Below are positions 3-33,787 of a DNA stretch of 33,970 nt, piece after piece. The translations under genes were made by a program, and so were the position numbers. Below the pieces are notes generated by a model, which was not told the origin of the DNA, made no database searches, and saw only the letters and a list, made by a program, of their open reading frames with translations. Positions within the stretch are counted from its first letter, which is position 1. Each line of letters opens with the position of its first letter. Source of the DNA: a virus; UHGV virus genome UHGV-0040082; one strand, 5' to 3'.

Positions 3-440
3 TCAGAGGAAGAAATAGGCCCGTTATTGGGTGAATGCAGGTTTACTACTTCGGGTAAGTTGAGACTAAAACCCGGATTGATGCCTACCAGTGACGTTAT
101 CACGCTGGCGCAACACTGTATGTATCACGGTTTAATTGGTGACGGTCCAGAGGAAGACACGGGCGAAAACCATGATGGCGAGTACAAGCCCGCATTCGAC
201 ATCCTTGAATACGTTTACTCCGCCGTTGCTCACCTTGGATTGTCTGAGTCTGAAGCGTGGGGCATGACAATGACCGGATACAGGGCCGCAGTACGCGCTA
301 AAACGCCTCCAGACGAAAGAAACGAGAAACGTAAGCCAAACGTTCAGATAAATAAACGTGATTATGATGAGCAAATGGAGGCCGCTAAGAGGGTGCTGGA
401 ATTTATGAAAAAACGCGAGCAAGAAAAAGCCCGGAATTAA
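3..440 (+). CDS. Hypothetical phage protein, possibly tail assembly chaperone (5' end outside window)
   Basis: Frame is open from position 3 to the TAA at 438-440. Acidic middle, Lys/Arg/Glu-rich C-terminus. Assignment is positional only (upstream of tape measure gene). Confidence 0.35.
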   Translation, partial: SEEEIGPLLGECRFTTSGKLRLKPGLMPTSDVITLAQHCMYHGLIGDGPEEDTGENHDGEYKPAFDILEYVYSAVAHLGLSESEAWGMTMTGYRAAVRAKTPPDERNEKRKPNVQINKRDYDEQMEAAKRVLEFMKKREQEKARN

Positions 441-456
441 CCGGGCCTTTATCTTT
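429..456. terminator. Bidirectional rho-independent terminator
   Basis: Hairpin gcccgg-aattaa-ccgggc (429-446) flanked by an A-run upstream and a T-rich tract downstream; sits between convergent ORFs. Confidence 0.6.
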
Positions 457-757
457 ATTTGTATGCCGCAAATCTGCATCTTGCTTCATCCAGGTCATGA
501 ATATCGTACACGTTATCGTAAATGTAAGTTGCGACCTGTGCTTTCTGTACGTCAGTTGCGTTCGGGAACTCCATGCTTACGAAAGTAACTGCATCAACGT
601 AGTGTTTGAACATCTTTTTGTTAACGCACAGTGCGTAAATCAATACAGCAGGCCAGCAAATCAGCGCACCAAAGAATGCCAGGAGCATATTAAGATGTTT
701 TTTCTGAGCTACAACCATAGTTGCGATAAAGCCGATGAAGCAAATTACCAGTTCCAT
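455..757 (-). CDS. Small membrane protein (two predicted TM helices), moron
   Basis: 100-aa ORF with two hydrophobic stretches near the N-terminus; RBS AAGGGG about 7 nt upstream of ATG; opposite strand to tail genes. Confidence 0.5.
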   Translation of the reverse strand: MELVICFIGFIATMVVAQKKHLNMLLAFFGALICWPAVLIYALCVNKKMFKHYVDAVTFVSMEFPNATDVQKAQVATYIYDNVYDIHDLDEARCRFAAYK

Positions 758-875
758 GATACACCCCTTAATTACGTTTGTCTTCGGTTGTCATTGCCAG
801 CGCCAGTACAGCCATCACATTAAATGCTAACCATGCTGTAATATATACATCTATAACCGTTTTGATTGTTTCCAC

Positions 876-1226
876 TTATGCACCAGCCTTGATCCTGTTA
901 TGGATTGCGAACCCCTTAATTTCGCCGTCATGAATAACTTTGAGTACGTCAGGATCTTTTATTCCGTCAATCATATCTTTGTATTTTTCGTGGATCCTGT
1001 GTTTTTCTACAACCTCTTTATGTAGGAACGGTACTACCGCCTTATAATTGCACGCTGCGTTGTATATGACCTCCATGTACCCCATCCCTTCGCCGTATCT
1101 TATGTCGTATAGTTCTGCAGCAAATGCGCATTCACGTTCCGCTTTTTCAATCTTGTTATCTGCGTTCGCGTTGAATGCTAAACCAACCATTAACGCTACC
1201 ATTGCCGCTTTGATTAACCGTTTCAT
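876..1226 (-). CDS. Secreted/periplasmic protein with signal peptide, moron
   Basis: N-terminus MKRLIKAAMVALMVGLAFNANA-D looks like a Sec signal peptide with an AxA cleavage site; no recognisable domain. Confidence 0.5.
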   Translation of the reverse strand: MKRLIKAAMVALMVGLAFNANADNKIEKAERECAFAAELYDIRYGEGMGYMEVIYNAACNYKAVVPFLHKEVVEKHRIHEKYKDMIDGIKDPDVLKVIHDGEIKGFAIHNRIKAGA

Positions 1227-1238
1227 AATCCACCCCGC

Positions 1239-1325
1239 TCATTTCTTGTTTTTAAGTGCTTTCAGCATTTCTTCGATAAAGTCGGTATAGCGTTCATGCT
1301 CGTTGGGTCGGTAGTAGCCTTTCAT
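1239..1325 (-). CDS. Possible 28-aa small ORF
   Basis: ATG preceded by GAGGA at ~8 nt; TGA stop 13 nt upstream of the next gene start. Too short for confidence. Confidence 0.25.
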   Translation of the reverse strand: MKGYYRPNEHERYTDFIEEMLKALKNKK

Positions 1326-1401
1326 TTTCTTATCCTCTTTTGCTTCCTCCGGTTAATCCGGCCTTTTAAGTCCCTTTACTCTATCCCTTTCCTTTAGCCT
1401 C

Positions 1402-1430
1402 TTTATACAAAATGGAGTCGTTATAGTAAA
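1402..1430 (-). promoter_or_regulatory. Candidate sigma70-type promoter for the minus-strand cassette
   Basis: On - strand: TTTACT, 17-nt spacer, TATAAA. Weak -35. Confidence 0.3.
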
Positions 1431-1482
1431 GACAATTTGTATAAAATAGAGATCTAGATCACACTTTTCATGAGGTTAAATC

Positions 1483-3831
1483 ATGGCAACTAGTTTAGGT
1501 ACAATTTACTACGAAGTTGATGCAAAAACTGGTCAACTTCTCGTTGCTCAACGACAGGCAGACCAGGCTTTTGACAGCATCGAGCGTGGCGCAAAACGCG
1601 CTGACCGCCAGGTGAACACGCTTAAGACTTCAATCAAAGCGCTATCCAGGGTTATCCATTTGCTACTTGCTGCGGAGGCTGTACGCCAGTTTATTGACAT
1701 GGCGGAGCAAGCGAAAATGCTTCGCGTAAAAATCAAAATGCTTACTGGTGATACGGAGGCTGCCGGACGTGTTTTCGATGGCCTGAAAGAAATATCAAAA
1801 GAAACCGGGCAAAGCATGAAGGATACTGGCGAACTGTGGCAAGGCCTTGCTATATCGCTAAAAAACACATCCGCTACTGAAGGCCAATTGCTAAACCTGG
1901 TCGGTACGATTCAGAAAATGGGTGCATTAGGCGGAGCGTCAGCGGAACAGATGTCTAACTCTATGCGCCAGTTCCGCCAGTCTATAGACGGCGGCGTGCT
2001 GCGTGCTGAAGAGTTTAACAGTCTGCTTGAAAACACGCCAACCATCGTACAGACAATGGCTCGCCATATGGGGTTGTCAATGGGCCAGTTCCGCGCCGAA
2101 ATGCTGGACGGCAAGATCACGGCTGAAAGGATGGTTAACGCGATTCAGGCGGCTACACAGGAAACAAACGAGAAGTTCGCACAGTTGCCGCGCACATCCG
2201 GCATGGCCTTCAATGAGCTAAAAGTTGAGGTGATGGGACTTGTCGAACAGCTTGACGATCTTTTCGGCATATCTGACGGCGTTGTGTCAGCAATAGACTT
2301 AATCACTGGCGGCGTTGAGGGATTAGGTAAGGGCGCAAAATTCGCCGCAACATGTTTCAATACACTCAAAACCGCTGGTAGCGAGTTCATCGACATGTTT
2401 GACGATGTTGCTGTTAAGGCTGGCGAGGTTGCTGAAGAGATTATCAGGATGGTAACGCCAATCAAGGCGCTAATGGATGGGTACAAATGGATGAAGGAGA
2501 TCATTGACAAACGCAAGGAAGAGCTAAACAGCAACAACGAGAAGAAATTCGGCCCCACCATTGGCAAATTCATGACATTCAAGAATGACATAGAAAAAGC
2601 CACAGCCGCCTATGACGAGTTCATGCAGAAACAGGGTGAGGCTGACGATGGCAAGATCACCGGATTCGATCAGCCAGTTGGTAAGCCCAAAAAAGGCAAA
2701 AAGGGCAAAAATGACAAGAAATCTGAAGCTGATCGGCTTGGTGATGAAGGCATAAAAGTGTCCGACCAGTACAACAAGGACGCCGCCGCCATGCGTAAAG
2801 CGCTGGAGAACGGCAAGGCCATTGATGCTGCGTTCGCTCAGGGCAAAATAACCCTCCTTGAGTACAAGGCCGCGCAGAAAGGGATAGGCAAGGAGCTGAA
2901 GGACGAATTGGCGCAAATCCCTGTTGATGAGCTACGCGACAAATGGGATCACATAGTCAGCCCGATGGATCAGCTTAAGGGAGAAATTGACCCAATCAAG
3001 CAGGCGCAAAATGAATGGGCCGTTCGAAAACAAATGCTGATAGACCTTGGCGCTACAGAGGCGCAACAGAAACAGGCGCTATTGGAATACGAACAACAGA
3101 TCAGAGATCTGAAATGGGAGCAATGGCAGGCGCAAAGCGAAACAAACGGCCTGATTGGTGCTTGCGTTAGTGGCCTGAAAGGTGGAATGGGCAACGCCCT
3201 TACCGGCCTACTAAACGGTACTCAATCGTTAAGCGAGGTTTTCGCCAACCTGGGAAGTAGCATACTTAACACTGTTGGCAACAAACTATCAGAAATTGCC
3301 GCCAACTGGATAGCAGATCAGTTGATGATGGAAACGCAAAGCAAGGCTACCCAGGCAAGTACAACGGCTGGCGCTGTTGCTGCCCAAGGCGAGATTGCGG
3401 CGGCGGCTATCCCGGCGGCGGCGGCAACGGCTGCGTCAACTGGTGGTAGCTGGGCGGCGGCTGGTGCTGCGGCGCTTTCTGCGATCATGTCACTGGCAAC
3501 GTCAATCTTTGGCGGCGGGCGTTATAATGGTGGCTCTGTTAATGGTGGTAGTCTGTATCGCGTAGGGGAACACGGGATTCCTGAGTTATTCCAGACTAGC
3601 AACGGGCGTCAGTATATGATTCCTGGCGAGAATGGTAGGGTAATTCCTGGTCGCGATCTCTTCAGTGGTGGCGGCATCAACATGCCTGTTAACATCACTG
3701 TCCAGACCACAAACGGATTTAGCGACGAAGACAGTCGCAGACTTGAACAGACGATGGAACGCGTCGCAATGAAAATGATGGCAAGGGAATCGCAACGGCC
3801 CGGAGGGATGTTACAACCTCGCAGGAAATAA
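1483..3831 (+). CDS. Tail tape measure protein
   Basis: 782 aa, largely helical/coiled-coil composition, Ala/Gly-rich hydrophobic segment (AAIPAAAATAASTGGSWAAAGAAALSAIMSLA), located upstream of M-L-K-I-J homologs; RBS GAGGT. Confidence 0.85.
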   Translation: MATSLGTIYYEVDAKTGQLLVAQRQADQAFDSIERGAKRADRQVNTLKTSIKALSRVIHLLLAAEAVRQFIDMAEQAKMLRVKIKMLTGDTEAAGRVFDGLKEISKETGQSMKDTGELWQGLAISLKNTSATEGQLLNLVGTIQKMGALGGASAEQMSNSMRQFRQSIDGGVLRAEEFNSLLENTPTIVQTMARHMGLSMGQFRAEMLDGKITAERMVNAIQAATQETNEKFAQLPRTSGMAFNELKVEVMGLVEQLDDLFGISDGVVSAIDLITGGVEGLGKGAKFAATCFNTLKTAGSEFIDMFDDVAVKAGEVAEEIIRMVTPIKALMDGYKWMKEIIDKRKEELNSNNEKKFGPTIGKFMTFKNDIEKATAAYDEFMQKQGEADDGKITGFDQPVGKPKKGKKGKNDKKSEADRLGDEGIKVSDQYNKDAAAMRKALENGKAIDAAFAQGKITLLEYKAAQKGIGKELKDELAQIPVDELRDKWDHIVSPMDQLKGEIDPIKQAQNEWAVRKQMLIDLGATEAQQKQALLEYEQQIRDLKWEQWQAQSETNGLIGACVSGLKGGMGNALTGLLNGTQSLSEVFANLGSSILNTVGNKLSEIAANWIADQLMMETQSKATQASTTAGAVAAQGEIAAAAIPAAAATAASTGGSWAAAGAAALSAIMSLATSIFGGGRYNGGSVNGGSLYRVGEHGIPELFQTSNGRQYMIPGENGRVIPGRDLFSGGGINMPVNITVQTTNGFSDEDSRRLEQTMERVAMKMMARESQRPGGMLQPRRK

Positions 3832-3835
3832 ACAA

Positions 3836-3866
3836 AACCCCGGTACAATGCCGGGGTTATCTTTCG
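3836..3866. terminator. Rho-independent terminator after tape measure gene
   Basis: Hairpin aaccccgg-tacaatg-ccggggtt followed by a T-rich tract. Confidence 0.55.
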
Positions 3867-3975
3867 TATTTATAACCGACCATTCCGCACGATATATCCT
3901 CTTCCGAAAATTACCTGTCAAATATTCCAGTTCCCCCCGCCTGGTGAATTTATCGTCATCCATATTTCACCTCAT

Positions 3976-4500
3976 TTATGTGCCATGATTAACACCATAA
4001 TATTTTTCTTCTAAAAACATCCTGTAAGCTACTGCATCACCGAAATCGTCAAAGTATTTATTGCTTTTTCTTTTTCCGTTCACAGCTATATACACCCTCC
4101 ACTGCTCCCTAGACTTGCACCACGATACACCACGAAAACCGCTAGTATTGTTTGACTTTATTTTCCCACTCCTTACGAAATCAGCACAGTTATCAACCTG
4201 ATAACCTATGTTAAGGTTTTCTATTCTATCATCACCCCTTACGTCGTTAATGTGCCTTATTACATGCTCATCAGGTATCGGGCCGTGATGCATTACCCAT
4301 ATAACTTGATGTCTATAGTAATTTCTCTTTTTATACGTGAATATGTAGTAACCGTTTTTATTCCTGGCGCCCACCGGACCCGGTTTTCTTCTTCCTCCAT
4401 TTTCACATATTAAAGTTTTCCAATATATGTTCCCTTCACTGTATATAAACAAGTCATTCCAGTTTATGCTATTGACCATGTCGTGATTTATTTGTGACAT
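3976..4500 (-). CDS. HNH homing endonuclease with C-terminal AP2-like DNA-binding domain
   Basis: HNH-type motif (HINDVRGDDRIENLN) followed by an AP2-like segment (GFRGVSW...W.V.I..NGK...); AT-rich relative to flanking tail genes; paralog of the ORF at 22125-22631. Confidence 0.8.
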   Translation of the reverse strand: MSQINHDMVNSINWNDLFIYSEGNIYWKTLICENGGRRKPGPVGARNKNGYYIFTYKKRNYYRHQVIWVMHHGPIPDEHVIRHINDVRGDDRIENLNIGYQVDNCADFVRSGKIKSNNTSGFRGVSWCKSREQWRVYIAVNGKRKSNKYFDDFGDAVAYRMFLEEKYYGVNHGT

Positions 4501-4742
4501 CCCTTAACCCCTGATAATTCATTAAATTTATGGTGCTCAACTATTGCCCACACTTTTAGATCCTTGCTGTACACTCGCCAATCAAGGTTGGCACGGAATG
4601 CGTAGCCGTATCCGTCTTTCAGTTTTTTGGGTGCTACGTCTTTCCTCAAGAACGCGTCCAGAAGTTCTTTTGCTTTTTTGACTACATGATCAGGTGCGTT
4701 TTTCTGTGCTTTCAGATTTTTACCAATCGCTACCAATTTCAT
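4488..4742 (-). CDS. Hypothetical protein (84 aa) upstream of and overlapping the HNH gene
   Basis: ORF overlaps the HNH start by 13 nt, suggesting an operon; no domain recognised. Confidence 0.4.
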   Translation of the reverse strand: MKLVAIGKNLKAQKNAPDHVVKKAKELLDAFLRKDVAPKKLKDGYGYAFRANLDWRVYSKDLKVWAIVEHHKFNELSGVKGCHK

Positions 4743-5085
4743 AACCCACCCCGCAATCCATTAGTTGACCACTTTCAGGAAGAAATCACGGTACTCATTT
4801 TCCTTCGCGTTCATCATGAATTGACCGTATTTGAATGCGTCATCAAAGCCTTTGACTATCGCCACCTCCACCTGTTCGAATGCGTTGTTCAGCATTACCA
4901 CTACATAACGCTTCATGTTGGCCTCCTTTGTCGGTACTGCTTTTTCTTCTTGCTTTCTATATACATCTTGTCACGCCATATGTGAAGCCATTTTGTAAAC
5001 TGGTTATAATTCTTGTGATGAATTTCTCATTTTTCGCGTAGGAGCGCGTAAAGATGTATGCAATATGTAACTTATAGGGGGAATC

Positions 5086-5439
5086 ATGCCGGAAGTTTTC
5101 AGATGGACGCCGCAAAGAAGCTACAGCGTGACCAGGGAACCAAACGTATCTGTCATTAAACTTGGTGATGGGTATGAACAACGCCAGGCGAAAGGGATTA
5201 ACACATTACTTGATAGTTACACCCTGGTTTTTAAAGGCAGTAGTGCAGGATGCGGCGATGGTGGGAATGTAGCAATCCAGGCGGAAGCATTCTTGAGGGC
5301 GCGCGGCGCGGTCGAGGCTTTTTACTGGTCGCCGTCGATGGATAACGTGCAGAGGCTTTTTGTTTGTCGTAGCTGGAGTATGACCAAAGACGGGCCTGTG
5401 TATACGCTAAATGCAACATTTGAGCAAGTTATTAATTAG
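5086..5439 (+). CDS. M: Minor tail protein M (lambda gpM-like)
   Basis: 117 aa; recalled lambda gpM pattern matches (FRW.P...., GDGY.QR, C..WS, FEQV.N at the C-terminus); good RBS. Confidence 0.8.
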   Translation: MPEVFRWTPQRSYSVTREPNVSVIKLGDGYEQRQAKGINTLLDSYTLVFKGSSAGCGDGGNVAIQAEAFLRARGAVEAFYWSPSMDNVQRLFVCRSWSMTKDGPVYTLNATFEQVIN

Positions 5440-14115: not shown

Positions 14116-14121
14116 AAATAA

Positions 14122-14149
14122 CCCCGCTTCGCGCGGGGTTTTCTTTTAG
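14122..14149. terminator. Rho-independent terminator after J (bidirectional)
   Basis: Hairpin ccccgc-ttcgc-gcgggg followed by ttttctttt; A-run on the other side. Confidence 0.7.
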
Positions 14150-14385
14150 TAGTTAGCTACACAGTTAGAAGGGCTACCGATGCGGCGCATGTTGTGATCG
14201 AGTTCATGACACCATTGACCAGTATAAGGCAGTTTTTCAGTGTCATAGACAAGATGACCTTCACCATCATAGACAACATCTTGTGGAATTACTCCGCTAT
14301 TCGGCAGGTTATGCAATGCGGCCTCTTTGTCAACAGCGCAACCAGTAAGAGCTACGGCCGCAGAGAATAAAACCACTTTGAACAT
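14146..14385 (-). CDS. Small lipoprotein (candidate Cor/Llp-type superinfection exclusion protein)
   Basis: 79 aa; N-terminus MFKVVLFSAAVALTGC = signal peptide plus lipobox; small mature part with two Cys; opposite strand between J and the side tail fiber. Confidence 0.55.
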   Translation of the reverse strand: MFKVVLFSAAVALTGCAVDKEAALHNLPNSGVIPQDVVYDGEGHLVYDTEKLPYTGQWCHELDHNMRRIGSPSNCVANY

Positions 14386-14572
14386 GTTTTTTCATTTTTT
14401 AATCCTCGTTCTTGTTAGCTCGTCCGGTTCATCCGGTGTCTTGAATATCCGACAAAACAACATTTCGTATATTGATATAAATCAACAAATACATTTTGTG
14501 TAAGCAGAAAATGCAACACAGATCACAAAATGGTAGAATTATTCCGTTAATTAACAAAATGGAGTCATCGAG

Positions 14573-17500
14573 ATGATTTACACAACTGGAACAGTTGCCA
14601 TTAACGGCAATACTGTTAAAGGCACGGGAACAAACTTTTCCGCGCCGCTTTCTCTTATTCGTGTAGGTTGCACGCTCATTGCTGTTGGCAATCCTGTGCA
14701 GATCTTTACCATCACGGAAATTAAAAGCGGCACTGAACTGTTAGTGACGCCAGCAGCTAACCCCGCAATCCCTGCCGGGACAAAATTTAGCATCCTGCTA
14801 TCTGATTCGATCTCAGTTGATGGGCTTGCTCAGGACGTAGCTGAAACCCTGCGTTACTACCAGAGCAAAGAAACAGAAATCGCCTCCGCCGTAGAGTGGT
14901 GGAATGAGATCGGCGGCGAAGGTCAGTTGGATCAGCTTCTTACCAACATTCGCGCAGAAACAGCCAAATCAACCGCTAACGCTCAAAAAACAGAAACTGA
15001 CAAAAACGCAGCAGAAGCGTCAAAAACAGCGGCTGCAAAATCCGCCACGGCAGCGAAAACATCAGAAACCAACGCTAAGGCAAGCGAGACGGCAGCGAAA
15101 ACAAGCGAAACCAAAGCCAAAACATCAGAGGACAGGGCGCAAGAATATCTGAATCAAATGGGAAGGCTTACCAGCCCAATGGTCCAATGTGCTTGGCCTG
15201 TTGAAACTAGCGGTAATGGCGCTTACGTTAAGATTGCTAAACTTAGCGATCCAAAGTCATCAGACTGCCACTTAACGCTAATGGTTACAAATGGCGGTGG
15301 CTACGGTTTAAGTTACGGGAATATTGACTTTATAGAGATCTCCGCTCGAGGTCTTAACGACACAGGCGAAGTAACCAGTGAAAATATATCTAAATTTTTA
15401 AGTATTCGCCGACTCGGTTCACCAAACCTTCCCAATAATAGTCAAATGTGTTACGGCCTGGTTAAAGGTGACGGCTATATCGAGGTCTGGTGCTACCAGC
15501 GATCTTATATTAAAAACACAAAAGTAGCGGTGCTGGCGCAGACTGGCAACACGGAATTATACATTCCTGAAGGATTTGTTAAGCAAGCCGACGCACCCGC
15601 TGGATATATTGAAAGCCCAGCAGCAAGGATTTACGACCAGGTAAACAAACCCAGCAAGGCAGATCTGGGCCTTTCTAATGCTATGCTTACAGGCGCTTTC
15701 GGTCTTGGCGGTAGCGGGATATCAACAACCGGCAAGATGAGCGATGTAGAGATCTTAAAAGCTCTGCGTGACAAAGGTGGTCATTTCTGGCGCAGTGATA
15801 GGCCGACCGGAAGTACGGCGACCATTTATAGCCGCGGTTCTGGTATATTCTCGCGGTGCGGCGATACGTGGTCGGCGATCAATATCGACTACGGAACAGG
15901 TAAAGTCAAGGTTTACGCTGGTAACGATGGTGGACTTAATAGTGGTAATTTTTCCGTCAATGAGCTATACGGAACCAAAAATAAACCGTCGAAATCGGAC
16001 GTTGGACTTGACAACGTAACCAACGATGCACAGGTTAAAAAATCCGGCGACACCATGACTGGCGACCTGTCGATCACTAAAGCAACACCTTCGATATACA
16101 TTCGTTCAAAAAGTGGAACCGCCCATGTATGGTTCCAGAATGAGGATCAATCGGAACGCGGTGTTATCTGGGCGCCTACCAATTCCGAAGGACTTGGCGA
16201 AGTTCACATCAGGGCCAAAAATACAAAAGGTGAATCAACTGGTGAACTCATTGTTCGTCACGACGGGGAAATTAGGGTTCCCAGTCTCACAGCGAGTAAA
16301 AAAATAAAAGGCGCAACCGCAGATTTTACAAACACATCAGAAACCACGACGGAGAACACGTTAAAAATCAGCGGTAAGCAGCATACACCGTTAGTTTTAA
16401 CGCGTACCGGGTATTCTGAAAACCTGTCCATTGGCTTCAAGGTTGATAACGTTGTTCAAAAATACCTCGGTATTAATAGCGGTGGGGATCTGTGTTTTGG
16501 TGATTATGCCGATCACAAAACAAACAGCAAAGTTATCACGCAAGCAGTGCTTGATAGCGGTGTGACGGTAGGCGGTCAGACAACCTTTTCTAAACTTGCC
16601 ACATTTAGCAAAGGCATGACCGGGCCTATCGTACCGGAAGGGCTTGACTCACGTACCATTGATCTTAATGACCTAATCATCAATGGTTCAGATATAGGAT
16701 CGGTCAAATACTATCAATGTACATCTTCCAGTGGTGGAGCGAACATTACCAACAAGCCTGACGGCGTAGGCGGTAACTTCTTGCTGCGTGTAGAGTCAGT
16801 CCGTAAAGTTAGTGATACTGACTATATAAGTATGCAAACACTGACTAGTGGCGACAAAGAACGCGTATTTGTTCGTTTTAATACTAATAGTAAGTGGACA
16901 GCATGGTGTGAACCTGTTGTATCGGGATGGAAGCAGGATGTGTCTGTTAAGACGCTAACAGCAGCCGAAGACGTCATCCTTAAAAACAGTGATACTGGTC
17001 CGCGCCTTATTTTAAGGAACTCTAACACATCGGCGCAGTCGTGGAGTGTAAGGGTGTGGGGTGAAAGCGGAAGGGAAAGCGTTTTTGAGGTTGGTAACAG
17101 CAATAGTTACATGTTCTATGCTCAGGAAGATGCAGCAGGAAACAAGAAATTTGACTTTAACGGTGATATTTCATGTAAGACGCTATATCAAACTTCTGAC
17201 CAGAGCCTTAAAGACAACATTAAGGTTATAGGTGACGCCACCGAATCCATCCGCAAAATGAATGGGTACACCTACACGTTTAAGGACGATGGCCTGCCTT
17301 ACGCTGGCGTTATTGCACAGGAAGTAATGGACGCGCTGCCTGAAGCGATAGCGTTTACCACTCTTTGCGGCAAGGAGCTACAAGGACCAACAACTGACGG
17401 CAACATCTTACGCGAGGAAATGAAGTGCCTCAGCGTTGACTATGCGGCGGTGACTGGTTTACTTGTCCAGGTGGCACGCGAAACGGATAACCGCGTCACC

Positions 17501-27143: not shown

Positions 27144-27647
27144 ATGAAAACAAAATGGTATGACTTAGCAAAACAACTCATGCGGGCGCAGGGCATGAGC
27201 CAGGATTCATTGGCTGATCTTATGGGGATAACCAAAGGCGGCCTTTCTCACTGGCTGAACGGTCGCCGTGAGCCGAATCTTGAAGATATTGCGCGTATCA
27301 TGCGGGCGCTTGGGCGTCGGCAATTCACTGTTACTCATGACGGAATGGTCATTGATGATTCTGTTTCTAACACGTTGCTGGGAGCGCCACCGCGTGATTT
27401 AGGCAGTTATCCGGTTGTTGACTGGAAGGATGTAGCAAACAATATGGAAGGCACACACCGATCAACATTGCCACACGTTGCTACTAGCGTTATTTGTTCG
27501 GATGATAGTTATTGGCTGGTTGCTAAAGGTGAATCAATGAACGCACCGCAGGGGTTAAGCATCCCGGCGGGGACTATGATACTCGTTGACCCGCACGCGC
27601 CAGCTATTGACGGAAAACTTGTTATAGCACAACTGGAGGAAGGGTAG
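27144..27647 (+). CDS. CI-like repressor (HTH plus S24 peptidase domain), ended prematurely by in-frame TAG
   Basis: N-terminal HTH (MSQDSLADLMGITKGGLSHWLNGRREP), S24 Ser motif GESM; TAG at 27645-27647 comes before the expected catalytic Lys segment. Confidence 0.75.
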   Translation: MKTKWYDLAKQLMRAQGMSQDSLADLMGITKGGLSHWLNGRREPNLEDIARIMRALGRRQFTVTHDGMVIDDSVSNTLLGAPPRDLGSYPVVDWKDVANNMEGTHRSTLPHVATSVICSDDSYWLVAKGESMNAPQGLSIPAGTMILVDPHAPAIDGKLVIAQLEEG

Positions 27648-27791
27648 ATACCTACGTTTAAGCAGTTGATTATTGATGGAGGCCGAAAACTTTTGCGTTC
27701 GCTTAATCCGCTGTATCCGCCAATCCCTATGAATCCAGAATCAAAAATATTGGGCGTGGTGGTTGATGCGAAGATCGTAAACCTGCCATAA
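27648..27791 (+). other. In-frame continuation of the repressor reading frame after the TAG
   Basis: Same frame translates to IPTFKQLIIDGGRKLLRSLNPLYPPIPMNPESKILGVVVDAKIVNLP, resembling the C-terminus of lambda CI (..FTFKKLI..LQPLNPQYP.I.....VVGKV..), ending at TAA 27789-27791. Confidence 0.7.
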
Positions 27792-27818: not shown

Positions 27819-27915
27819 TTCGCCCAAAAAAACACCAAAACGTAAACAGAAAACGCTATTTATTGTTTAGATATCAATAGCATATAAAATATTTTAAAAA
27901 AGTATACAAAATGGA

Positions 27916-33235: not shown

Positions 33236-33247
33236 TGGGTGGTCATA

Positions 33248-33787
33248 ATGAAAAATGATTTTGGAGGCAGCAGTACGCCGAAGGAAATTAAAGACCTGTG
33301 GCAGACACCTAAACCAGTTTTTAGAGGAATGGATCGTGAGTTTGAATTTGTCGCTGACGTGGCGGCAAACAAGGCAAACGCATTAATCCCGCGATATATA
33401 ACCGAAGAAATGGACACGCTGCATTATCCGTGGGGAGCGGTGGCAATGCCTGGTGAGTATGTCTGGATGAATCCACCATATTCGAACCCGGGGCCATTCG
33501 TTGATAAAGCGGCGCTTGAACACAGCCGAAACCACATCGGTTGCGTAATGTTATTGCCCGCTGACATTTCTGTTAGCTGGTTTATGAACGGCGTTGAGAC
33601 GGCAAACGAATGCAGATTAATAACGCGCGGGCGGCTGGCTTTTATAAATGCTGCGACTGGTAAGCCAGTTAGCGGAAACAATAAAGGGAGCTTGTTTTTG
33701 ATCTGGCATCCACGGTGCAGACATGAATGTATTTTCACGCAGATAACACGTAAAGAGCTATATGCAAGAGGTGCAGATAATGACTAG
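33248..33787 (+). CDS. Phage Dam-type DNA N6-adenine methyltransferase
   Basis: NPPY motif (WMNPPYS) and surrounding sequence typical of the phage orphan N6-adenine methyltransferase family; ATG at 33248 with GGGTGG RBS. Confidence 0.7.
   Translation: MKNDFGGSSTPKEIKDLWQTPKPVFRGMDREFEFVADVAANKANALIPRYITEEMDTLHYPWGAVAMPGEYVWMNPPYSNPGPFVDKAALEHSRNHIGCVMLLPADISVSWFMNGVETANECRLITRGRLAFINAATGKPVSGNNKGSLFLIWHPRCRHECIFTQITRKELYARGADND

What the first reader, a model, noticed from the sequence alone, without database searches (positions are those of the whole stretch)
429..1430. Minus-strand cassette (membrane protein, secreted protein, peptide) between the chaperone-like gene and the tape measure gene
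About 1 kb between the first ORF and the tape measure gene is occupied by opposite-strand genes: a possible 28-aa peptide, a 116-aa protein with a Sec signal peptide, and a 100-aa protein with two TM helices, ending at a bidirectional hairpin (429-446). A weak candidate promoter (TTTACT-17-TATAAA) lies at 1430..1402. Envelope-targeted products in a moron position suggest a lysogenic-conversion or exclusion function.
Basis: partly seen in the sequence, partly recalled or inferred. Interest (0 to 1): 0.55.

Follow-up and report, generated by a model that had tools for sequence, protein, structure and literature searches.

The report
Swappable envelope-protein cassette beside tape-measure gene
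Between the tail-chaperone-like gene and the tape measure gene of this mEp021-type E. coli phage lies a real, backwards-facing four-gene insert encoding small envelope proteins, in the same slot as phage HK97's known anti-superinfection gene; its function is untested.

Summary
It ends at a strong bidirectional terminator (425-450). All four are under purifying selection in their own frame (pN/pS 0.11-0.30).

The window is an mEp021-like (mEpimmI) E. coli siphophage. In 57 related loci the DUF6246|TMP gap always holds minus-strand cargo, in about 15 combinations of about 10 gene families. In distant relatives the two flanking genes abut, so this is a moron by definition. Exchange breakpoints sit just past the terminator and inside or at the end of the signal-peptide coding region.

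No protein matches any Pfam, PHROG, NCBIfam or PADLOC family or any informative fold. Both larger families are confined to this phage group.

The slot is the one occupied by the HK97 gp15 moron, an inner-membrane superinfection-exclusion protein, but there is no sequence similarity. The best reading is a prophage accessory operon that blocks phage entry at the envelope. The anatomy is shown; the function is inferred. I class it as a new member of a known kind, of moderate interest.

The parts
27..440 (+). 3' part of the DUF6246 gene (tail-assembly-chaperone position, between tail tube and TMP); left flank of the slot
   Evidence: PF19759 8.9e-35, phrog_791 6e-39; annotated 'DUF6246 family protein' in RefSeq relatives
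425..450 (.). Bidirectional intrinsic terminator (stem 429-434/441-446, extendable to 425-450); left boundary of every cargo variant
   Evidence: -19.5 kcal/mol with a U-run on the minus strand, z = -3.75. Homology to all cargo variants ends at about 449-460.
455..757 (-). tm100: 100-aa inner-membrane protein with two TM helices (about 2-19 and 24-45) and a 55-aa helical C-terminal domain. Topology is probably N-in/C-in by the positive-inside rule (inference). RBS is GGGGTG-N4-ATG.
   Evidence: pN/pS 0.19; 9 protein clusters in 5.8 billion
768..875 (-). tm35: 35-aa single-TM small protein with a GTG start directly after the sp116 TAA. It precedes tm100 in 16 of 16 slot loci.
   Evidence: pN/pS 0.30, no stops; relatives are called only as 'hypothetical protein'
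876..1226 (-). sp116: 116-aa secreted protein. Signal peptide is residues 1-22 (MKRLIKAAMVALMVGLAFNANA|D). The mature 94 aa is predicted all-helical, with two invariant Cys (C33, C59).
   Evidence: pN/pS 0.29; only 6 representatives among 1.84 billion
1239..1325 (-). p28: 28-aa hydrophilic small protein, first gene of the operon. It is the most widely conserved ORF of the slot (about 39 of 57 loci). RBS is AGAGGA-N7-ATG.
   Evidence: pN/pS 0.11; unannotated in mEp021
1326..1401 (-). Putative 5' leader of the operon, with a small hairpin CCGGAUUAACCGG (plus-strand 1349-1361). The same hairpin-plus-SD module lies upstream of the 79-aa lipoprotein gene at 14385.
1402..1445 (.). Near-invariant inverted repeat TTTATACAAAATG-N18-CAATTTGTATAAA. 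The candidate operon promoter (-35 TTTACT 1430..1425, -10 TATAAA 1407..1402, minus strand) lies inside it.
   Evidence: The element travels with the moron when it sits at another junction (L074). A degenerate copy lies at 4961-4999.
1457..1463 (+). Invariant GATCACA (contains a Dam site) between the palindrome and the TMP ribosome-binding site
   Evidence: also in L074 and upstream of the gene at 14573
1483..3831 (+). Tape measure protein gene; right flank of the slot
   Evidence: PF20155 TMP_3 3e-50

Best explanation
Window 425-1445 is a moron: an independently bounded accessory operon set backwards into the late tail operon of an mEp021-like temperate E. coli siphophage, between the DUF6246 chaperone-position gene and the tape measure gene.

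Shown. It encodes four real proteins in a translationally compact array:
- a cytoplasmic 28-aa peptide (p28);
- a Sec-exported helical 94-aa periplasmic protein with a conserved cysteine pair (sp116);
- a 35-aa single-pass membrane peptide (tm35);
- a 100-aa two-pass inner-membrane protein (tm100).
The operon ends at a strong terminator. The slot is a cargo hot spot. Its conserved ends are the terminator on one side and the promoter region, p28 and signal-peptide codons on the other. Different envelope genes are exchanged between these ends.

Inferred. The operon is transcribed from the weak sigma-70-like promoter inside the conserved palindrome, independently of late transcription, and so in the lysogen. 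Its products act in the periplasm and inner membrane to stop incoming phages after adsorption, at the step where the tape measure protein and DNA cross the envelope. This is what the HK97 gp15 moron does from the same genomic slot. tm35 and tm100 would form the inner-membrane component and sp116 a separate periplasmic component.
For: Gene reality: pN/pS is 0.11-0.30 in the called frames, with no stops. RBSs and gene spacings of 12, 0 and 10 nt are read directly from the sequence.

Moron status: the flanking genes are adjacent in L070, L071 and L074. The insert has its own terminator and low GC.

Hot spot: about 15 architectures occur in 57 loci. Cargo families include a VasI/TagO-like lipoprotein (PF11319, 7.5e-17), a weakly BamE-like lipoprotein and unrelated Sec proteins.

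Breakpoints: the left one falls at about 449-460. The right ones fall at 1161 (exactly the signal-peptide cleavage codon), at 1194-1221, or at 1230.

Envelope targeting.

Modular behaviour: tm35 precedes tm100 in 16 of 16 slot loci. sp116 occurs with or without them.

Precedent: HK97 gp15 lies between the tail assembly chaperone and TMP genes. It inserts in the inner membrane and blocks genome entry in a way that depends on the tail of the incoming phage (PMC3594210; its position is confirmed).

Evolution: sp116 diverges much faster than its neighbours. It drops to 35-38% identity where DUF6246 stays at 70-72%, and it falls together with the N-terminal part of TMP.
Against: There are no expression data. 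The promoter is only a 9-of-12 match and is not above chance on its own.

None of the four proteins resembles gp15/YebO or any family in Pfam, PHROGs, NCBIfam or PADLOC.

The structure models are of moderate confidence (pLDDT 70.6 and 74.2), and fold searches returned only generic helical bundles.

mEpimmI phages already carry experimentally shown exclusion lipoproteins elsewhere, gp81 in mEp021 (PMC11893012). A second exclusion system is therefore not required.

Cargo type does not follow receptor type. Among OmpA users, mEp021 carries sp138 and mEp515 an sp116-like gene. Among LamB users, mEp010 appears to carry sp138 (only its signal-peptide region matched) and mEp044 and mEp554 carry tm35+tm100 (with receptor data from PMC11893012). 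Cargo type also does not follow TMP type within the main group.

The sp116/TMP co-divergence rests on two lineage groups and is confounded by phylogeny.

Some cargo genes (c106, c60, c74) have no export signal.
Confidence: 0.45

Rival explanations
1. This is lysogenic conversion unrelated to phage exclusion. The envelope proteins would change host fitness, for example by protecting against contact-dependent or T6SS attack, colicins, serum or envelope stress, or by affecting colonisation.
For: Alternative cargo in the same slot includes a VasI/TagO-like T6SS-associated lipoprotein (PF11319, 7.5e-17; named TagO in RefSeq) and a weakly BamE-like lipoprotein. Classic morons such as lambda bor and lom act on host interactions (PMC3594210). 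The phage already has an Lpp exclusion system (PMC11893012).
Against: No similarity to any known immunity, resistance or virulence family. The position next to the TMP gene and the fast divergence of sp116 alongside TMP fit a phage-directed role better. Both families occur only in this phage group and have no chromosomal homologues.
Confidence: 0.25
2. This is a membrane-acting toxin, abortive-infection or addiction module. tm35 and/or tm100 would depolarise or permeabilise the inner membrane when triggered, and p28 or sp116 would act as modulator.
For: Small hydrophobic single-pass peptides of about 35 aa resemble type I toxins in size and shape (own knowledge). The neighbouring reverse-strand moron carries a ParE-like toxin (PF24732, 2.3e-8). 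Hot spots with diverse cargo are typical of defence loci.
Against: No PADLOC or toxin-family hit. No antisense-RNA or antitoxin signature was seen. The genes are co-oriented and translationally coupled like subunits of a complex. Other cargo in the slot is lipoproteins or secreted proteins rather than toxins.
Confidence: 0.1
3. The cassette has a lytic-cycle accessory function, for example modulating lysis timing (holin/antiholin-like two-TM protein) or tail or injection-apparatus assembly, and is expressed only after induction.
For: tm100 has the size and two-TM layout of class II holins (own knowledge). The operon sits inside the late region. The palindrome carrying its putative promoter mirrors a -10-like element facing the late genes.
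Against: The genes are absent from most close relatives: tm100 is in 16 of 57 loci and sp116 in 11 of 57. They cannot therefore supply a core lysis or assembly function. They are transcribed against the late operon and are insulated by a terminator. No holin family was hit.
Confidence: 0.1
4. The ORFs, especially the 28-aa and 35-aa ones, are chance ORFs, and the region is non-coding spacer or regulatory DNA.
For: The ORFs are short. p28 is unannotated in mEp021, and in mEp554 the region is annotated on the opposite strand.
Against: Purifying selection is specific to the called frames, with variable sites concentrated at third codon positions and no stops across 5-28 distinct sequences per gene. 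RBSs are correctly placed. The proteins persist down to 35-42% identity at protein level.
Confidence: 0.02

Closest known systems
HK97 gp15 moron (YebO-related inner-membrane superinfection-exclusion protein)
   Same: Same genomic slot, between the tail assembly chaperone gene and the tape measure gene (PMC3594210). Both are small inner-membrane products with their own terminator, and both are accessory and absent from relatives.
   Different: gp15 is a single 62-aa gene on the same strand as the tail genes. This insert is a four-gene operon on the opposite strand that includes a secreted protein. There is no sequence similarity and no YebO Pfam hit. No phenotype has been tested here.
T4 Imm + Sp (injection-blocking exclusion pair)
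   Same: Both pair a small two-TM inner-membrane protein with a second envelope protein acting in the periplasm. Both would act after adsorption (PMC11436027 for Imm/Sp function; the layout is from my own knowledge).
   Different: No sequence or family match. imm and sp are unlinked early genes of a virulent phage. Sp targets the tail lysozyme, and no lysozyme domain was seen in this TMP, where only TMP_3 was hit.
P22 SieA
   Same: A prophage-encoded inner-membrane protein that blocks DNA passage through the envelope (PMC11436027, PMC10883804).
   Different: Unrelated sequence and genomic position. SieA is a single protein.
mEpimmI Lpp exclusion lipoproteins (gp81 of mEp021, gp116 of mEp010) and Cor/Llp-type receptor blockers
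   Same: They belong to the same phage group, lie within the structural gene cluster, and are envelope-targeted and polymorphic (four sequence types). Their exclusion function is shown experimentally (PMC11893012).
   Different: They sit at a different locus. In this window the candidate Lpp counterpart is the 79-aa LTGC lipoprotein at 14385..14146, though homology to the published Lpp types was not checked. They are lipoproteins acting at or near the outer-membrane receptor. The proteins here have no lipobox.
Cargo hot spots of temperate phages and satellites (for example the P2/P4 defence hot spots; own knowledge)
   Same: A fixed slot with conserved flanks and many interchangeable cargo sets in otherwise syntenic genomes.
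   Different: The cargo here is tiny envelope proteins without enzymatic domains, with no hit in PADLOC. One exchange boundary lies inside a coding sequence, the signal peptide.

Membership tests
Phage moron (Hendrix/Juhala sense) | Inserted between two genes that are adjacent in related phages | tested here: met
   DUF6246 and TMP overlap by 18 nt in L070 and L071 and are 58 nt apart in L074. The gap is 644-1276 nt, filled with cargo, in all mEpimmI-type loci.
Phage moron (Hendrix/Juhala sense) | Own transcription terminator | tested here: met
   Hairpin 425-450 folds at -19.5 kcal/mol with a U-run on the minus strand, z = -3.75.
Phage moron (Hendrix/Juhala sense) | Own promoter, active in the repressed prophage | tested here: inconclusive
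   The best candidate is TTTACT-17-TATAAA (9 of 12) at 1430..1402. Its -10 is embedded in an invariant palindrome. It is not above chance alone, and there are no expression data.
Phage moron (Hendrix/Juhala sense) | Base composition different from neighbouring genes | tested here: met
   GC is 0.38-0.44 across 450-1500 against 0.48-0.53 in DUF6246 and TMP.
HK97 gp15 / YebO family | Sequence homology to gp15/YebO | tested here: not met
   BLASTP of gp15 against tm100 and tm35 gives no alignment at E <= 100. There is no YebO hit in Pfam at E <= 1.
HK97 gp15 / YebO family | Located between the tail assembly chaperone and TMP genes | tested here: met
   PMC3594210.
HK97 gp15 / YebO family | Blocks genome entry of superinfecting phage without blocking the receptor | not testable with these tools
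   Needs plating, adsorption and DNA-entry assays.
Superinfection-exclusion proteins in general (Imm, Sp, SieA, Cor, Llp, Ltp) | Homology to a described exclusion family | tested here: not met
   No significant Pfam, PHROG, NCBIfam or PADLOC family for any of the four proteins. Fold searches were uninformative.
Superinfection-exclusion proteins in general (Imm, Sp, SieA, Cor, Llp, Ltp) | Envelope localisation | tested here: met
   By prediction only. sp116 has a Sec signal peptide with A-N-A|D and a conserved Cys pair. tm35 has one hydrophobic segment and tm100 has two, at Kyte-Doolittle >= 1.6.
Holin (class II) | Part of the phage's lysis cassette and conserved as a core function | tested here: not met
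   tm100 is present in only 16 of 57 related loci. It is not next to any lysin. No holin family was hit.
Known anti-phage defence systems (PADLOC) | Match to a PADLOC model | tested here: not met
   0 families at E <= 1 for all four proteins.

The most novel reading that the evidence does not exclude
The DUF6246|TMP slot of mEpimmI phages is a dedicated, exchangeable envelope-defence locus. In this reading a conserved 'leader' drives interchangeable periplasmic, lipoprotein and inner-membrane effectors aimed at the DNA-injection machinery of incoming siphophages. The leader consists of a portable 44-bp palindromic bidirectional control element, the p28 micro-protein and a shared signal peptide. 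New effectors would be plugged in by recombination at the signal-peptide cleavage codon. The same control element marks the phage's other reverse-strand morons, and a half-site abuts the early promoter. That would place all morons under one regulator, possibly the prophage repressor acting as activator.
Probability: 0.15. Interest if true: 0.65.

Novelty: new member of a known kind. Interest (0 to 1): 0.4.

Why it matters
If the operon excludes phages, it adds four uncharacterised protein families, two of them micro-proteins that annotation pipelines miss or call on the wrong strand. These would join the short list of exclusion factors that act after adsorption. It would also show that the chaperone|tape-measure junction is a recurrent home for such factors in unrelated siphophages (HK97 and the mEpimmI group). 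The natural variants, with sp116 alone, tm35+tm100 alone, or both, amount to a ready-made dissection of the system. mEpimmI phages are reported to be as common as lambdoid phages in human faecal isolates. Their variable envelope cargo could therefore shape which phages can infect gut E. coli. If no phenotype is found, the region remains an ordinary moron of unknown role.

Tried and rejected
1. Family searches of all four proteins in Pfam, PHROGs, NCBIfam and PADLOC gave only sub-threshold noise.
2. Large-database homology found only small families. sp116 has 7 clusters by word-indexed search and 6 representatives among 1.84 billion by full HMMER. tm100 has 9 clusters. All are in the same phage group and none has an informative name or domain.
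4. HK97 gp15 shows no sequence similarity.
5. tblastn against 50,697 phage records found only mEpimmI phages.
6. The palindrome as an RNA hairpin is not supported. The arms are conserved as sequence, and the two natural arm changes are uncompensated: the window's right arm, and the T-to-C change in the left arm of L034, L039, L044 and L060. The plus-strand fold is not better than shuffles (z = -0.86).
7. A link between cargo type and receptor type or TMP type was rejected within the main group (PMC11893012). Only the coarse co-divergence of sp116 with the N-terminal part of TMP remains, and it is confounded by lineage.
8. Tai tail-assembly-inhibition systems were considered but lie elsewhere and are cytoplasmic (PMC11364771).
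9. The holin reading was rejected because the genes are absent from most relatives.
10. The 384-aa and 500-aa 'members' of the p28 and tm35 clusters are unrelated clustering artefacts.
Full report
CONTEXT. The first 3 kb of the window match Escherichia phages mEp554, mEp044, mEp010 and mEp021 and about 33 E. coli prophages at 80-91% identity. These are the Nus-dependent, non-lambdoid 'mEpimmI' temperate siphophages described in PMC11893012. The ORF entering from the left end (27..440) is a DUF6246 protein (PF19759, 8.9e-35; phrog_791). In relatives this gene follows the tail terminator and tail tube genes, which is the tail-assembly-chaperone position. The ORF at 1483..3831 is a tape measure protein (PF20155, 3e-50).

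CHECK OF THE OBSERVATION.

The hairpin at 429-446, extendable to 425-450, holds the DUF6246 stop codon in its loop. As RNA on the minus strand it folds at -19.5 kcal/mol and is followed by UUUUUCUU (z = -3.75; 0 of 200 shuffles fold as well). On the plus strand it folds at -17.3 kcal/mol. 'Bidirectional terminator' is therefore a fair description.

The motif TTTACT-17-TATAAA (1430..1402) is the best sigma-70-like match on the minus strand of the intergenic region, at 9 of 12. It is weak. The stricter scan does not list it, and that scan finds no excess of promoter-like sites over shuffles.

One gene was missed. A 35-aa ORF at 875..768 (tm35) has one hydrophobic helix, and its GTG start follows the TAA of the 116-aa gene without a gap.

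The operon is therefore p28 (1325..1239), 12 nt, sp116 (1226..876), 0 nt, tm35 (875..768), 10 nt, tm100 (757..455), then the terminator a few bases later. sp116 and tm100 share the same ribosome-binding site, GGGGTG-N4-ATG. p28 has AGAGGA-N7-ATG. These are read directly from the sequence.

ARE THE ORFS GENES? I collected 78 related loci. Sources were annotated records, contigs encoding homologues and 59 IMG/VR contigs found through the DUF6246 protein. I aligned each ORF family codon by codon.
- In its own frame each ORF has no stops and the lowest pN/pS: p28 0.11, tm35 0.30, sp116 0.29, tm100 0.19.
- The other five frames give 0.2-2.5, and all but one of them carry stops.
- Variable columns concentrate at third codon positions.
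- Protein-level conservation persists down to 35-38% identity for sp116 and 42% for tm100.
All four are real protein-coding genes, including the two micro-proteins. Public annotation handles them poorly. p28 is not annotated in mEp021. In mEp554 the tm100 region carries a plus-strand 'hypothetical protein'. Relatives of p28 and tm35 appear only as 'hypothetical protein'.

THE PRODUCTS.
- sp116 has a textbook Sec signal peptide: n-region MKRLIK, a 12-residue h-region, and c-region NANA with Ala at -3 and -1. It has no lipobox. The 94-aa mature part (pI 6.2) is predicted all-helical (AlphaFold pLDDT 70.6, and only one of five models is good). It has two cysteines that are invariant even in the 35%-identical relatives, as expected for a periplasmic disulfide.
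- tm35 has one hydrophobic segment, residues 10-30.
- tm100 has two, about 2-19 and 24-45, followed by a 55-aa helical domain (pLDDT 74.2). The flank after TM2 carries more Lys/Arg than the inter-helix loop, both in the window protein and in the 42%-identical P0016. N-in/C-in with a cytoplasmic C-domain is therefore the more likely topology. This is inference from the positive-inside rule.
- p28 is hydrophilic (GRAVY -1.5) and has no export signal.

THE SLOT IS A MORON HOT SPOT. In every mEpimmI-type locus the DUF6246-to-TMP distance is 644-1276 nt and is filled by minus-strand genes. In distant relatives with 35% DUF6246 identity (L070, L071) TMP overlaps DUF6246 by 18 nt. In L074 the two genes are 58 nt apart. 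This meets the definition of a moron. The cassette also has lower GC, 0.38-0.44 against 0.48-0.53 in the flanks.

Clustering of the minus-strand ORFs gives about 10 recurrent families in about 15 architectures across 57 loci:
- p28|sp138: 13 loci, including mEp021 gp63
- p28|tm35|tm100: 10 loci, including mEp554
- VasI/TagO-like lipoprotein | 124-aa lipoprotein: 10 loci
- p28|sp116|tm35|tm100: 4 loci (the window, L001, L014 and L035; L014 has a 100%-identical DUF6246 and the same slot length as L001)
- p28|sp116|tm35: 3 loci
- several rarer combinations
The TagO-like protein matches PF11319 VasI (7.5e-17). The 124-aa lipoprotein is weakly BamE-like.

p28 is the commonest element, in about 39 loci. 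tm35 precedes tm100 in all 16 slot loci that have tm100. sp116 occurs with or without them. The window's four-gene set is thus a rare combination of two modules behind a common leader. In 5,426 complete E. coli genomes the full cassette occurs once, and parts of it in 22.

EXCHANGE BOUNDARIES. Pairwise BLASTN of the window against representatives of each architecture shows where homology is lost and regained.
- On the left it always ends at 449-460, just past the terminator.
- On the right it resumes at 1161 for the sp138 type. This is exactly the last codon of the 22-residue signal peptide.
- It resumes at 1194 for the TagO type and at 1208-1221 for other Sec proteins.
- mEp554 lacks precisely 879-1229, which is the sp116 gene alone.
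Unrelated mature proteins therefore share one promoter, p28 and signal-peptide leader (MKRL.K...). The signal-peptide codons serve as a recombination junction.

A PORTABLE CONTROL ELEMENT. The 80 bp upstream of TMP hold an inverted repeat, TTTATACAAAATG-N18-CA(T/A)TTTGTATAAA (1402-1445), followed by GATCACA (1457-1463). Both are invariant or nearly so in all 38 distinct sequences, whatever the cargo. The candidate operon promoter has its -10 in the left arm. The right arm offers the mirror-image TATAAA or TAAAAT facing TMP.

In L074 a distant tm100 homologue sits one junction upstream, between the tube gene and DUF6246. The same palindrome, GATCAC and AGGTTAAA ribosome-binding site accompany it there. 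The empty DUF6246|TMP junction of L074 keeps only the hairpin and a remnant resembling the right arm.

Related elements lie behind the window's two other reverse-strand morons. One is at 4961-4999, upstream of the gene at 5086. The other is CATTTCGTATA and CATTTTGTGTAA plus CAGATCACA at 14462-14527. The leader hairpin CCGGAT(T/G)AACCGG with its GAGGA is shared with the 79-aa lipoprotein moron at 14385..14146.

The 13-mer TATACAAAATGGA also abuts the -35 of the early rightward promoter at 27903-27915, and it is conserved there in mEp021. The arms show no compensatory changes, and the plus-strand RNA fold is unremarkable. A DNA-level role as promoter and/or operator is therefore more likely than an RNA structure. 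Which protein binds it is unknown.

COMPARISON WITH KNOWN SYSTEMS. None of the four proteins matches any Pfam, PHROG, NCBIfam or PADLOC family. Fold searches gave only generic helical matches. Both larger families are tiny and confined to this phage group and this region.

The closest known case is positional and functional rather than homologous. The original 'moron', HK97 gene 15, lies between the tail assembly chaperone and tape measure genes. Its product inserts into the inner membrane and blocks genome entry in a manner that depends on the tail of the incoming phage (PMC3594210; its position is confirmed). gp15 is a single 62-aa gene on the late strand and shows no similarity to tm100 or tm35.

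T4 Imm plus Sp and P22 SieA are further functional analogues (PMC11436027). The experimentally shown mEpimmI exclusion lipoproteins (gp81 of mEp021) are at another locus (PMC11893012).

MECHANISM AND CONFIDENCE. The following are shown: a four-gene operon, export and membrane signals, a terminator, moron status, modular exchange, narrow distribution and purifying selection.

The following are inferred: transcription from the palindrome-embedded promoter in the lysogen, and a role in blocking superinfecting phages at the periplasm and inner-membrane step. In that role tm35+tm100 would form one module and sp116 another. Four things support this: the gp15 precedent in the same slot, the exclusively small envelope cargo, hot-spot behaviour typical of defence loci, and sp116 evolving much faster than its neighbours while tracking the N-terminal part of TMP. 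That last point is weak and lineage-confounded.

I put this explanation at 0.45. Other lysogenic conversion is at 0.25, a membrane toxin or abortive-infection module at 0.10, a lytic-cycle accessory role at 0.10, and spurious ORFs at 0.02 or less.

VERDICT. This is a new member of a known kind, a moron in the chaperone|TMP slot. Its added points of interest are two overlooked micro-protein genes, cassette swapping at a signal-peptide boundary, and a conserved portable palindrome shared by the phage's morons. Interest is 0.4.

Noticed in passing
window 27144-27791 (+), stop at 27645-27647: The cI-like repressor gene carries an in-frame TAG where mEp010 cI has CAG. The product would stop at 167 of 215 residues, losing the end of the C-terminal domain. 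The rest of the reading frame is intact downstream.
   Followed up: partly
window 1402-1445, 1457-1463; also 4961-4999, 14462-14527, 27903-27915; L074:3230-3290: An invariant 13-bp inverted repeat (TTTATACAAAATG-N18-CATTTTGTATAAA) plus GATCACA is conserved in all 38 distinct mEpimmI intergenic sequences. Related copies lie behind the other two reverse-strand morons. An identical 13-mer half-site abuts the -35 of the early rightward promoter and is conserved in mEp021. In L074 the element moves with the moron to another junction. The binding factor and role are unknown.
   Followed up: partly
window 3811-4916 (-): A second reverse-strand moron lies between the TMP gene and the minor-tail gene. 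It encodes a 51-aa ORF, a ParE-like toxin-domain protein (84 aa, PF24732), an HNH_3+AP2 endonuclease-like protein (174 aa) and a 50-aa ORF. It is bounded by the bidirectional terminator at 3836-3858. No antitoxin partner was identified.
   Followed up: partly
window 14121-14572: A third reverse-strand moron encodes a 79-aa lipoprotein (lipobox LTGC) between the J-like gene and the tail-fibre gene. It is the candidate counterpart of the published mEpimmI Lpp exclusion lipoproteins, though homology to them was not checked. Its leader shares the CCGGAT(G/T)AACCGG hairpin and GAGGA with the cassette studied here. A 21-aa upstream ORF (14395..14330) has the better-placed Shine-Dalgarno sequence and overlaps the lipoprotein start out of frame.
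   Followed up: no
window 33239-33787 (+): The phage encodes a Dam-type N6-adenine methyltransferase (PF05869, 6e-51). The invariant GATCACA next to the palindrome contains a Dam site, as does the adjacent GATC at 1451-1454.
   Followed up: no
L074:2470-2530: This is an 'empty' DUF6246|TMP junction. The terminator-like hairpin GCCCGGTAAACCGGGC is still present after DUF6246. It is followed directly by a remnant resembling the right arm (TTTGTAT..AATAGAGAT..AGATTACA) and then the TMP start. This suggests either loss of cargo or a pre-insertion state of the slot.
   Followed up: no
L010:3235-3461 and L011:407-633: Two tandem copies of the 35-aa tm35 gene precede tm100 in these metagenomic relatives, behind a 60-aa cytoplasmic ORF that replaces sp116.
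   Followed up: no
L003 (mEp554) 1986-2537; L002 (mEp021) about 2400-2490: There are annotation problems in the deposited genomes. In mEp554 the tm100/tm35/p28 region is annotated as two plus-strand hypothetical genes. In mEp021 the p28 ORF is not annotated at all.
   Followed up: yes
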